51,344 nucleotides of DNA from Eledone cirrhosa. Taxonomy: Eukaryota. Position 1 is the stretch's first letter. Each line of letters opens with the position of its first letter. A program made the translations under genes and the position numbers. The stretch is taken from contig CAXHJY010000621.1 of the NCBI GenBank assembly GCA_964016885.1, forward strand, positions 1 to 51,344. The letters run 5' to 3'. Of this stretch, positions 1 through 41,130 are shown piece by piece. A model generated the notes under the pieces. The model made no database searches. It worked only from the letters and a program-made list of their open reading frames with translations, and had not been told where the DNA came from.

Positions 1-733
1 ATATACTATAATATATTAAGTTATAGATATATAGATATATATATTACACAAATGTTTATATGTATATGACACACTTACTACAATATATATATATATATAT
101 ATATATATATATATATATATATATAGTGAGGAATAATGCGGAGAAAACAGAAGAAAAAAAAGCTTTTAAGTGCAAAGGAAACAGAAAACAAAAATATACA
201 CAACAAACAAACAACAAAAACAGGAACAAAGACAAACAACATCAACCTACAGCAACGACAACAACACAGAAAAAAAGGTAGACTGCAAATGACTGATGGA
301 GATGAAACTGAATTAGCAAAGCAACGAAGCAAGGTGGAAGAGAGGATCACGTGATTCAGTGACCAGTATGTCTTCAAAGCTAAGCTACTTATACACTGAC
401 TGATGAACTAATTGCTCATTTAGTAAAGTACCCAATATAGTCTTTATAATAGGCAATCTGGGAAAAGGTAAGGGAAAGATTTGAAGAGTGCGTGTGTGAG
501 AGAAGTTATATGTACGTGTGTGTGTGTTATAGAGTGAGGCGGGGTGGGGGGAGAAAGGTGTGAATGAAATGCGGAACTTTCGAGATCAGAGAAAGGTAAA
601 ATGAAAATTTAGTGGTGCACCTATCTGTCTATGAATTTTGTAGGTGTGTGTATAAATAAATAAAATATATATATATAAATATAAAATAAAGTTAAATAAA
701 AGTAAAAATGATTAAAATTTAGCTTCGTTTATT

Positions 734-788
734 ACTGCTATATATATTTCAGTGACAGCCATCTTTGGCTGTGACCTCTTCAGGCAGT
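734..788 (-). ncRNA. Type I hammerhead ribozyme motif, inverted copy of 942-996
   Basis: Exact reverse complement of 942-996. Confidence 0.8.
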
Positions 789-941
789 TTGAATTAGTAT
801 GGTATAGACAAGTACATATGTTGTTTAGGTTGTTTAGGTGTATAATATTGTCAATACTCTGATATGCCCAGTTCCTTGTTGGGTTGTTAATTCACTGAGG
901 AACTGGAGTCATATGTACTTGTCTATACCATACTAATTCAA

Positions 942-996
942 ACTGCCTGAAGAGGTCACAGCCAAAGATGGCTGTCACTGAAATATATATAGCAGT
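942..996 (+). ncRNA. Type I hammerhead ribozyme motif (minimal, Penelope-type)
   Basis: ACTGC-CTGAAGA-[GGTCACAGCC aaagat GGCTGTCACT]-GAAA-TATATA-TA-GCAGT. Stem I is 5 bp, the core matches CUGANGA/GAAA, stem II has 9 of 10 pairs and stem III is a short palindrome. Predicted cleavage after A991; AATAAA at 997-1002. Confidence 0.8.
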
Positions 997-1216
997 AATA
1001 AACGAAGCTAAATTTTAATCATTTGACTTTTTATTTAACTTTATTTTACACTACTCCGGAGTAAACCAAACCAACCTGCGCACTTCGTCGAGAGTGCTCC
1101 AGCCTGCATACTGAGGTGTTGGTATACAACCAACATAAACTCAAAATCTCTCTCTCTCTCTCTCTCTCTCTCTATATATATATATATATATATATATATA
1201 TATATATATATATATT

Positions 1217-1260
1217 GAATGAAAACAGTTCTAGTCCTGTAGAAGCCATTTTCTATCTTA
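1217..1260 (+). mobile_element. Fragment of hammerhead-bearing repeat family B (3' half of ribozyme)
   Basis: GAATGAAAACAGTTCTAGTCCTGTAGAAGCCATTTTCTA matches the copies at 22.8, 23.4, 25.2-25.3 and 33.4 kb and directly follows (TA)n. Confidence 0.75.
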
Positions 1261-1799
1261 TATAGTGTGTGTGTGTGCATGTGTATATACATGTACCTGT
1301 ACGTATATATATGTATATATATAATGTATTCATAGGTATAAACATGGAACTGTACGTATATATCTATGTATACACACACATAAATATATATATATATATA
1401 TATACATACACACATACATACACACAAACAAACTCGGGTCACAGTATACATGGTGCACATAGGGGAATTGTCTGTCTGGTGTGAAATATGTTTGTATGTG
1501 TGTATAACAGTATATAAAGAAATTTAAAACTTTCTTTTTTTATACCTGTTTCGACAGGTATGAAAGAAAATGTAATTATGAAATGCTAAAAGACTCGTTG
1601 TGGGTCAATAAAATAAAGTACCAGTCAAATATGAGGTCGATAAAATCCCCACAAACTTTTGTACTTGTCCCGAAATTAGAACTCACTATTAAATGACAAA
1701 TTAGTTATTTCATTAAATCTCTCGTAATTATGGTTTATTTTGATAATTAAGGGAAAGGTGATATATTCTTGTCAGTCACGTGGACAGAGAAAAAGTTAA

Positions 1800-2020
1800 G
1801 TAAGGAGCGCTACGAAATGTGGAGAGGAGCTTTGGCCTGGTGAAGCAGTTCCTCAACAGGAAGAGGGTTGGATGGGTGTCAGTCAGGTTCAGTCTGCTCA
1901 TGAGGGTCGTTAACTGCTGTAGACTGGACCTGATGGTGGAGTGTATGGCAGGAGGATCGGTGATCCGAGGAAAAGGATATTCTTTTTTGGGGTCACTTGC
2001 ACCTGGCGGAGAATGGAACG
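1800..2020 (-). pseudogene. Degenerate CRE-clade-like non-LTR retrotransposon fragment (region C-terminal to the RT catalytic motif)
   Basis: Minus strand reads ...NILFLGSPI, then a frameshift, then AIHSTIRSSLQQLTTLMSRLNLTDTHPTLFLLRNCFTRPKLLSTFRSAP. This resembles the LLG(A/S)PI...RL..L..H.AL.LLRNC...PKL.Y.LR..P motif of CRE-type elements (recognised from memory). Confidence 0.6.
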
Positions 2021-39552: not shown

Positions 39553-39576
39553 CATTTCATTATCCGCTTGTCCGAA
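39553..39576 (-). CDS. Candidate 24-nt microexon
   Basis: gttttaacttcgtag|TTCGGACAAGCGGATAATGAAATG|gtaaaa; the phase-2 frame SDKRIMK joins the neighbouring candidate exons; the donor is weak. Confidence 0.25.
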
Positions 39577-40232
39577 CTACGAAGTTAAAACACAACGCCT
39601 TCCACACGGGCAATCATAATAATAATGTTGTTGGTGATGAGGGTGATGATGGTGGTGGTGGTGATGGTGGTGATGAGGGTGGTGGTGTTAGTGATGGTGG
39701 TGGTGGTGGTGATGGTGATGAGGGTGGTGGTGTTAGTGATGGTGGTGGTGGTGGTGATGGTGATGAGGGTCATGATGGTGGTGATGATGGTGGTGGTGGT
39801 GATGAGGGTGGTGGTGTTGGTGTTGATGATGATGATGAGGGTGGTGGTGTTAGTGATGGTGGTGGTGGTGATAATGGTAGTGGTGGTAATGAGGGTGTTG
39901 GTGGTGGTGTTGATGATGATGATGAGGGTGGTGGTGTTAGTGATGGCGGTGGTGGTGATGGTGATGAGGGTCATGATGAGGGTGGTGATGAGGGTGGTGA
40001 TTGTGATGATGAGGGTGTTTGGTGAGGGTCATGATAGTGAGGGTGGTGATGATGAGGGTGGTGGTGTTGATGAGGGTGATGGTGGTGATGGTGATGGTGA
40101 TAATAGACAGATCGACGGGTAACACACCAACATTCAAATAACCACATTGACAAACATATACACAAGCACACACACACACACACATTCGCTCACATACATT
40201 GACACTCCCTCTCACATGTACACACATATATC

Positions 40233-40331
40233 CCGGGTGTCCACACAACATGTATGCTCATTTGAATTACCTCTACAGCAATATTTATTAGAATGCTGTT
40301 AAAGTGTGTATACATTTTTGGGGACACCCTG
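40233..40331. mobile_element. Third copy of the Tc1/mariner-type MITE
   Basis: CCGGGTGTCC...GCAATATTTATTAGAATG...AAGTGTGTATACATTTTTGGGGACACCCTG followed by (TA)n. Confidence 0.8.
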
Positions 40332-40424
40332 TATATATATATATATATATATATATATATATATATATATATATATATATATATATATATATATATATAT
40401 AATGTCAGGTCTAGAAAGGGTGCA

Positions 40425-40530
40425 CAGTATTCCTGGGTGTCGTAAGAAGTAGCTAAAGGGGTTGGTGACAGGAAGGGCATCCGGCTGTAAAACATTACCT
40501 CAAACGACCAGTCTAACCATGGCAAAATTA
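40425..40530 (+). repeat. SINE/LINE 3'-type fragment
   Basis: GGGGTTGGTGACAGGAAGGGCATCCGGCTGTAAAAC...CCAGTCTAACCATG resembles a widespread SINE body/tail segment (recognised from memory). Confidence 0.45.
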
Positions 40531-40996
40531 CGTGCATATTATTATATGTATATGTGTGTGTATACACTCATATAGATGTAATAATGCATTCATGATCAAA
40601 ATAAAGTGTTATAGGGAACATATAGAATAAAACTGCAAAGAAACTAAAGGGGGGGGTACTACTACTACTACTACTACTACTACTACTACTACTACTACTA
40701 CTACTACTACTACTACTACTACTACTACTACTACTACGTATGAGACAATGTGTACACTCATACATATATACGTATATACAACTCTGGGGAAAGAAACAAT
40801 ACAGTTATTAAATAAACCTCATTCTATGAGATGAGATTATCTTGGTCAGCCTTTCAGATTTTCAGCTGACCCCCGTATATATCTATATCTATATATATAT
40901 ATATATGTGTGTGTGTGTGTGTGTGTGTGTGTTAGGTAATTCCAAAGAAAGGCAAAGGAAAAAAGAGTGCTCTATGTATAGAACAGCTATTTAATT

Positions 40997-41130
40997 AGAA
41001 AGTGAACAACACAAAATATAACTACTCCATTACCAAAGGTTTCTGGATCACAGTCGATAATAATATACGTCTAGGATCCCAAAACCTTTGGTAATGGATT
41101 AGTTATATTTTATTGTGTTGTTCACTTTCT
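40997..41130. repeat. Imperfect inverted repeat (arms of about 53-56 bp, 25-bp spacer) next to (CT)n(TA)n
   Basis: AGAAAGTGAACAACAC-AAAATATAACTA.TCCATTACCAAAGGTTT..GGATC versus its reverse complement at 41075-41130. Confidence 0.85.

What the first reader, a model, noticed from the sequence alone, without database searches (positions are those of the whole stretch)
682..41130. Recurrent architecture: divergent fold-back hammerhead elements living inside (TA)n microsatellites
Seen: five fold-back structures (682-1048, 16882-16924, 22788-22940, 25154-25349, 40997-41130) from apparently four unrelated sequences. In each, the arms point away from each other, carry all or the 3' half of a hammerhead core (GAAA..UH; least clear at 16.9 kb), and at least one arm runs into (TA)n or (TC)n(TA)n. 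Established: Penelope-like elements carry minimal type I hammerheads in their pLTRs, often insert with an inverted partial pLTR, and favour AT-rich or simple-repeat targets. Inference: several non-autonomous, ribozyme-processed retroelement families colonise (TA)n tracts here and may seed or extend them, linking ribozyme activity to the genome's microsatellite load. No autonomous RT/GIY-YIG partner is present in the window.
Basis: partly seen in the sequence, partly recalled or inferred. Interest (0 to 1): 0.75.

Follow-up and report, generated by a model that had tools for sequence, protein, structure and literature searches.

The report
Back-to-back stubs of Hydra-type Penelope retrotransposons
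The hairpins are real and are cut-short, back-to-back copies of the ribozyme-bearing ends of several Penelope-type jumping genes, a known kind that sits in TA repeats; the copies run unbroken through the predicted ribozyme cut site, so self-cleavage likely does not make them.

Summary
All five fold-backs are real, and a sixth lies at 32030-32302. They are 5'-truncated, head-to-head copies of the pseudo-LTR ends of Penelope-like retroelements. Families A (22.8, 25.2 kb) and B (0.7 kb) were traced elsewhere in this genome to their own broken RT + C-terminal GIY-YIG ORFs with Hydra-clade motifs; C to one such locus; D and E to none. Exact core-spanning words occur 12,149 (A) and 8,369 (B) times. 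228 of 386 arms end in (TA)n, against 11% of control positions. Head-to-head copies, pLTR hammerheads, a one-sided tail and (TA)n targeting are all in print (Craig 2021; Arkhipova 2013). 'Ribozyme-processed non-autonomous families' is not supported: 357 of 386 arms span the cut site, 8 begin or end at it. Two details are worth keeping: outer ends are one short plus one tailed in 87 of 95 classified pairs, and tail ends carry family-specific repeats ((CA)n after A, (CT)n after B) that the parent lacks. Family ends touch only 11 of 142 TA tracts in the window. This scan noted the same kind before, on two other pieces of this genome and in another genome.

The parts
682..915 (-). Family B left arm: from the usual 5' start of short copies through the hammerhead (core at 783) to the short 3' end, then TA run 665-677
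910..1148 (+). Family B right arm: joined at the palindrome CATATG (910-915), hammerhead, long tail; followed by (TC)13(TA)21 at 1147-1215
   Evidence: 98% to the pLTR in L136
942..996 (+). Type I hammerhead motif of family B: 5-bp stem I, CUGAAGA, long stem II, GAAA, palindromic UAUAUA in stem/loop III, UA cut site (activity untested)
   Evidence: stems I and II in the MFE fold, z -2.8
1217..1260 (+). Family A fragment (3' half of the hammerhead)
7639..7752 (-). Family D solo copy with intact core CUGACGA and 13-bp stem I, ends at TA run
16756..16900 (-). Family C tailed arm; starts inside loop II, so it holds only GAAA-stem III-GUC-stem I 3' strand
16900..16935 (+). Family C short arm, internally deleted after GAAAC, ends in TA run
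   Evidence: searches compared with copies
22788..22848 (-). Family A short arm, whole hammerhead with core CUGGUGA (one change)
22851..22939 (+). Family A tailed arm starting 3 nt before the cut site (no GAAA), ends in TA run 22941-22964
23374..23658 (.). Two family A fragments facing each other across a TA run, then an A tail whose middle has expanded into a 21-bp tandem array (23495-23634)
25154..25202 (-). Family A left arm, exact inverted copy of 25301-25349, ends 2 nt past the cut site in (GA)n; atypical, possibly a later duplication or an assembly error
25203..25300 (.). (TA)49 between the two arms
25301..25374 (+). Family A short arm with core CAGAUGA (minor variant; 8 of the 100 listed junction copies have A here)
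32030..32302 (.).
33349..33480 (-). Family A solo copy with full tail, ends in TA run
40915..41130 (.). D-like fold-back: tailed left arm (41043-40915, minus), short right arm ending in (TC)n(TA)n; 3' half of the hammerhead only

Best explanation
The fold-backs are 5'-truncated, head-to-head copies of the pseudo-LTR ends of several Penelope-like retroelements, two of which are joined elsewhere in this genome to RT + GIY-YIG ORFs with Hydra-clade motifs, and they likely arise anew at each insertion rather than by ribozyme cutting. Shown: parent structure, copy numbers, TA flanks, two fixed 3' ends per family, clustered 5' ends, arms spanning the cut site. Inferred: the endonuclease nicks a (TA)n tract on both strands; the RT primes both DNA ends on uncleaved element RNA at two fixed internal sites downstream of the hammerhead (short end and tail end); each cDNA runs 5' until it falls off or reaches the RNA's 5' end (A: 30 nt below a TATA box; C: inside loop II); the two are joined head to head at a short palindrome or microhomology. 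Most stubs lack the promoter and would be dead on arrival; they decay neutrally. The hammerhead is a passenger in the stubs; in the parent it would act on read-through or tandem RNA, probably as a dimer.
For: Parent B: L136 holds inverted partial copy, pLTR, broken ORF (RWK, DKT, YRDD, CxCX5C, GIY-YIG PF01541 E 7e-4, CxxC, CxH), second pLTR, hammerheads 4,097 bp apart; Atlas look-alikes at 0.96 carry HTH_animal/RVT_1. Parent A: tail reads straight into the ORF in L201 and L202; inverted A copies abut truncated RT/EN within 30 nt in 4 of 16 extended loci; promoter-part of A in 4 of 25 EN loci against 1 of 80 control loci. C: complete hammerhead in promoter-bearing copies and a continuous EN-UTR-pLTR in L240. 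Ends: 357 of 386 span the cut; two 3' modes in each family; short+tail in 87 of 95 classified pairs, about half expected. Arms of one locus are as alike as or more alike than arms across loci, with no left or right lineage (A 91.6 vs 90.4, L-L 90.5, R-R 90.3; B 95-100 vs 93). Literature: Craig 2021, Arkhipova 2013, both-strand extension, two internal RT starts and dispensable hammerhead in vitro for an anole PLE.
Against: No ORF was linked to D (0 of 8 extended loci) or E (not searched), and C rests on 1 of 25 loci. All ORF copies seen are broken, so current activity is not shown. Pfam finds no RT domain in the B pieces and PDB no relative. No phylogeny against reference PLEs was run. RNAfold does not give a hammerhead fold for the A, C-parent and D copies tried (z -0.9, -0.6, +1.7, -0.7, 0). 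The same junction recurs at least 237 times in A and at one spot in C, which an inherited fold-back unit would also give. The A same-locus excess is small (1.2 points). The 25.2 kb pair does not fit the short+tail rule. The in vitro work is on a Poseidon-clade element, not Hydra.
Confidence: 0.85

Rival explanations
1. Ribozyme-processed non-autonomous elements (retrozyme-like): hammerhead cleavage defines a monomer RNA that is copied in trans.
For: Complete hammerhead motifs in five or more families; a U3-A8 covariant core kept in family E; the left arm at 25154 ends 2 nt from the cut.
Against: Only 3 of 386 arms start and 5 end at the cut; tandem neighbours are rare (2 of 24 close B pairs); the commonest C stubs lack CUGANGA altogether; only 7 of 25 A copies picked on the upstream region keep all three core motifs.
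Confidence: 0.04
2. The short fold-backs are self-propagating units (MITE-like or non-autonomous PLEs) that were amplified as ready-made hairpins from a few masters.
For: One exact A junction 237 times; fixed centre in about 20 of 25 C loci; short C stubs far outnumber promoter-bearing C copies (3,948 against 162 candidates).
Against: No left- or right-arm lineage in 20 A loci with the same junction; several junction types cluster at the same 5' point; B junctions vary from 65 bp to 2.9 kb apart; outer ends are asymmetric, unlike terminal inverted repeats.
Confidence: 0.08
3. The fold-backs are assembly artefacts or later replication template switches at TA palindromes.
For: The window is a whole 51-kb unplaced contig; arms at 25.2 kb are 100% identical, private variants included, in a family about 10% diverged, with (TA)49 between them; no read or contig spanned either tested locus.
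Against: Arms of most pairs have diverged 5-10%, have family-fixed unequal ends and occur on many chromosome-scale contigs; 4 raw reads of another sample show the opposite-strand joint at the B junction, 909/915 (not assignable to this locus).
Confidence: 0.03

Closest known systems
Hydra clade of C-terminal EN+ Penelope-like elements (Craig et al. 2021, PMC8557442; abstract, passages, section 11 whole, part 2 of supplementary file 1 seen)
   Same: RWK/RWR, DKT, CxCX5C linker, C-terminal GIY-YIG with CxxC and CxH, hammerhead in the pLTR, (TA)n targets; Penelope-13_HM is listed with a 5'-truncated inverted copy at its 5' end; a molluscan family (Hydra-1_Obim) is listed.
   Different: Here many families and at least 12,149 (A) and 8,369 (B) exact core words; B unit is 4.1 kb where the paper says generally under 3 kb; tails are 70-100 nt rather than 30-40; A carries a microsatellite tract in its 3' UTR; longer stems II or III; the listed Hydra-1_Obim hammerhead differs in sequence from A-E by eye.
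Penelope elements of Adineta vaga (Arkhipova et al. 2013, PMC3846280; passages seen)
   Same: Head-to-head inverted pLTRs, palindromes at the junction, TATA and Inr in the pLTR, tail at one end only, pLTR running into the ORF.
   Different: Low copy number and target-site duplications there; that paper proposes self-priming on an antisense template, whereas the short+tail pairing here favours priming from both target ends.
Poseidon element of Anolis carolinensis in vitro (Frangieh et al. 2024, PMC11167929; parts 1-2 of 4 seen)
   Same: Two internal RT start sites matching the tail ends, both strands cut and extended, AT-rich targets, hammerhead not needed for insertion.
   Different: Other clade; no fold-back product or (TA)n array was tested there.
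Minimal PLE hammerheads (Cervera and de la Pena 2014, PMC4209133; passages seen)
   Same: Type I motifs in pLTRs, palindromic loop III, dual motifs 100-700 bp apart on opposite strands, mostly truncated PLEs, U3-A8 covariant core.
   Different: Different hosts and sequences; cleavage not tested here.
Non-LTR retrozymes (bioRxiv 10.64898/2026.07.22.740005, part 1 of 5 seen; PMC7229834, search listing only)
   Same: Non-coding, type I hammerhead, PLE-derived.
   Different: Retrozymes are head-to-tail tandem monomers; these copies are head-to-head or solo and are not bounded by the cut site.

Membership tests
EN+ Penelope-like element | Single ORF with RT and GIY-YIG endonuclease between pLTRs | tested here: met
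   B: L136, L140. A: L201, L202, L204. All copies broken; frames read separately. C: one locus. D, E: not found.
EN+ Penelope-like element | Inverted 5'-truncated copy at the 5' end; tail at one end only | tested here: met
   105 divergent against 10 convergent pairs; 87 of 95 classified pairs short+tail
EN+ Penelope-like element | Type I hammerhead motif in the pLTR | tested here: met
   (168 distinct motif strings in 927 kb of selected loci against 2 in a crude shuffle)
EN+ Penelope-like element | Hammerhead self-cleaves | not testable with these tools
   needs an in vitro cleavage assay; folding is supportive for B only
Hydra clade | RWK motif and DKT in place of DKG | tested here: met
   B: RWK and DKT in L136 (RWR in L140). 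A: RWR in L201 and L202, DKT in L201, DKA in L202
Hydra clade | CxCX5C linker; CxxC and CxH around the EN's E and N; C-terminal EN | tested here: met
   L136, L204, L206, L138
Hydra clade | CCHH motif absent from the EN | tested here: met
   one Cys, not two, between GIY and YIG in B and A (read)
Hydra clade | Insertion into (TA)n | tested here: met
   228 of 386 arms against 11% control; empty sites not seen
Hydra clade | RT phylogeny groups with Hydra references | not tested
Non-LTR retrozyme | Head-to-tail monomers, each bounded by the hammerhead cut site | tested here: not met
MITE (DNA transposon derivative) | Symmetric terminal inverted repeats with fixed ends | tested here: not met
   outer ends unequal in 87 of 95 classified pairs; arms are pLTR sequence of RT elements

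The most novel reading that the evidence does not exclude
These elements write new microsatellites as they insert: when the telomerase-related RT primes at the tail end it stutters on the element's last dinucleotide, laying (CA)n after family A and D tails and (CT)n after family B tails between the element and the (TA)n target, while the other target end is primed at the short site on the same RNA. Evidence: (CA)4+ follows 24 of 67 A tail ends against 4.7% of TA tracts in the same loci, with no trend with copy divergence; B tails give CT 4, CA 0 of 27; parent tails run into the ORF without such runs. Not excluded: choice of pre-existing compound tracts by microhomology, or later slippage.
Probability: 0.15. 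Interest if true: 0.7.

Novelty: new member of a known kind. Interest (0 to 1): 0.3.

Why it matters
As a discovery it is ordinary: the architecture, the ribozyme and the target are all described for Hydra-clade Penelope elements. Its value is as a large natural data set. How Penelope elements make inverted copies is still open in the papers read, and tens of thousands of stubs with fixed short and tail ends, clustered 5' ends and family-specific junction repeats give direct tests of two-ended priming, of where the pLTR transcript starts, and of whether this telomerase relative adds repeats. It also warns that hammerhead counts in such genomes mostly count dead retroelement stubs.

Tried and rejected
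Rfam scan of the window: the 150 rows shown of 478 were all microsatellite-driven miRNA matches below gathering score; no hammerhead among those shown. Whole-window inverted-repeat scan swamped by TA; replaced by masked self-BLAST. DNA search with the B arm returned nothing, not even itself; a pattern search gave 8,369. Idea that the CAGATGA variant marks an inherited fold-back master: rejected, it came from my query; 91 of 100 listed junction copies have T. Idea that the 16.9 kb hairpin is just the natural stem II: rejected, parents have a different 5' strand and long loop II. First end-mapping filtered out arms starting after the cut; redone without that filter, same result; its C set includes relatives (C'), which lowers the TA share. 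Search for a D parent ORF: none linked in 8 extended loci; no ORF in 4 extended C loci. L163 alone could not link A to its ORF because other elements are nested in the UTR (0 of 24 other EN loci showed A in the same direction within 1.5 kb). PDB search empty. One row (L033) was misaddressed and is ignored. Reads over 25090-25215 did not cover the unique flank: no verdict. RNA holders found were small shares only, so expression was not tested. Loci were chosen by family searches, so TA-tract lengths (median 21 against 18 nt) are not a genome-wide estimate. I found no paper on family-specific junction repeats in searches (listings only; subscription journals and bioRxiv supplements are not covered; Craig supplement read in part).
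Full report
Observation. The window is a whole 51-kb contig of a 3.0-Gb genome; 37% of it masks as short-period repeat. After masking, self-BLAST finds all five inverted structures and a sixth at 32095-32302. A type I hammerhead scan finds complete motifs at 947(+) and 783(-) (family B, intact core), 7738(-) (family D, intact), and 25309(+), 25194(-), 22844(-) (family A, one core change each). 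The 16.9 and 41 kb structures hold only the 3' half. The right arm at 22.85 kb lacks GAAA. So the architecture is real, with the corrections listed under the observation check.

Copy number and orientation. An exact 24-mer of A occurs 12,149 times and an exact 19-mer over the B core 8,369 times; reversed controls gave 0. C gave 3,948 and D 944 first-look candidates, 40 of each scored. Of the first 100 listed B matches, 24 have a neighbour within 3 kb (0.6 expected): 20 divergent, 2 convergent, 2 tandem. In stored loci 105 pairs are divergent and 10 convergent. 228 of 386 arms have (TA)4 at the 3' flank, against 11% of 19,978 random positions in the same loci.

Parents. Extending B gave L136: inverted partial copy, pLTR, a broken ORF, second pLTR, hammerheads 4,097 bp apart. 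The ORF has RWK, DKT, YRDD, a CxCX5C linker, a C-terminal GIY-YIG (Pfam E 7e-4, below the curated cut-off) and CxxC/CxH; Atlas look-alikes at 0.96 carry HTH_animal and RVT_1 on part of their members. These are the marks of the Hydra clade in section 11 of Craig 2021. For A, a second ORF family has inverted A copies abutting its truncated 5' end in 4 of 16 extended loci, direct A copies downstream in L204 and L207 beyond nested insertions, and A tails that read straight into the ORF start in L201 and L202. For C, promoter-bearing copies carry the complete hammerhead with a long stem-loop II, and L240 joins a Hydra-type EN to it through an unbroken UTR (1 of 25 loci). No parent was found for D and none was sought for E. 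No ORF piece lies in the window.

Ends. Each family has two 3' ends: a short one about 20-55 nt past the cut site and a tailed one 70-100 nt further. In pairs, the outer ends are one short and one tailed in 87 of 95 classified cases (A 53/61, B 12/12, C 18/18, D 4/4; 10 pairs with an intermediate end left out). 5' ends cluster at 40-45 nt before the cut in A, which is 30 nt below a TATA box, at about 170 nt in B, and inside loop II in C; I infer these are transcription starts. The cut site is not a boundary: 357 of 386 arms span it, 3 start and 5 end within 3 nt. Only 7 of 25 A copies picked on upstream sequence keep all core motifs, as expected for neutral decay.

How it likely works. The endonuclease nicks (TA)n; RT primes both target ends on uncleaved RNA at the two fixed sites; the cDNAs run to the RNA's 5' end or fall off earlier and are joined head to head at a palindrome or microhomology (CATATG at 910-915). 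Arms of one locus are no less alike than arms across loci and form no left or right lineage, which favours formation at each insertion. An anole PLE in vitro cuts and extends both strands, starts at two internal sites matching the tail, and does not need its hammerhead. Against this: one A junction recurs 237 times, the folds of most copies tried are not hammerhead-shaped, and the mechanism is inferred from ends alone.

Microsatellites. Catalogued families cover 1,653 bases of the window and their 3' ends touch 11 of 142 TA tracts (uncatalogued families would raise this). So TA is mainly target, not product. Two signs of contribution remain. The A 3' UTR holds a compound tract: 10 of 11 copies reaching the start of the 410-nt unit are preceded by (TG)n. 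And tail ends carry family-specific repeats: A gives CA 28, CT 3 of 87; B gives CT 4, CA 0 of 27; short ends give TA. With stricter de-duplication 24 of 67 A tails have (CA)4+, against 4.7% of TA tracts, with no link to divergence. Repeat addition at priming, target choice by microhomology and later slippage all remain open. None involves the ribozyme.

The 25.2 kb pair is atypical: identical arms in a 10%-diverged family, (TA)49 in the middle, left arm ending 2 nt past the cut in (GA)n. A later template switch or an assembly error is as likely as an insertion product; reads gave no verdict. For B, raw reads of another sample hold the family and 4 show the opposite-strand joint at 909/915, not assignable to this locus.

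Comparison and verdict. Head-to-head inverted pLTRs, junction palindromes and one-sided tails, pLTR hammerheads including opposite-strand pairs and U3-A8 cores, and (TA)n targeting by Hydra elements, one with an attached inverted copy, are in print. The finding is a set of new families of a known kind; A and B meet every Hydra feature tested, phylogeny untested. Earlier notes of this scan describe the same on other DNA. Interest 0.3.

Noticed in passing
window 32030-32302: Family E hammerhead has UUGAAAA, the U3-A8 covariant of C3-G8, in all 9 close copies seen; known from Schistosoma PLEs (PMC4209133). A related subfamily reads GCAA in place of GAAA in 6 copies (L047, L166, L195 twice, L196, L209).
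   Followed up: partly
window 8604-8711, 40228-40331, 9932-10007: About 108-nt element with CAGGGTGTCCC-type terminal inverted repeats flanked by TA; looks like a Tc1/mariner-type MITE (label recalled), no hammerhead.
   Followed up: no
window 17790-19451: Tandem array of a 64-bp unit, 26 copies, 97% matches.
   Followed up: no
window 23495-23634: 21-bp minisatellite (6.7 copies) grown out of the middle of a family A tail.
   Followed up: partly
L138:147-2400, L080, L164, L137: Further Hydra-type ORF family with a downstream hammerhead (family G) whose stem I matches family D and whose loop III is palindromic (TATATA, TATGTA, TGCGCA); more than 20 motif types in the stored loci.
   Followed up: partly
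L012:700, L100:1335, L021:60 and about 40 other places: Very common C-related stubs (C') that also start inside loop II; two longer copies read CTGAGAAG at the core.
   Followed up: no
L204:2965-4809, L207:1802-5471, L163: The microsatellite inside the family A 3' UTR collects nested insertions of other elements, including another Hydra-type ORF.
   Followed up: partly
window 8284-8395, 2726-2788, 50138-50248; 10200-10366, 17530-17687, 50603-50669: Dispersed short repeats; the first set looks tRNA-derived (SINE-like, label recalled).
   Followed up: no
L137:252-704: Another RT fragment (YVDD, RVT_1 E 0.001) inside an inverted repeat; probably a different PLE clade.
   Followed up: no
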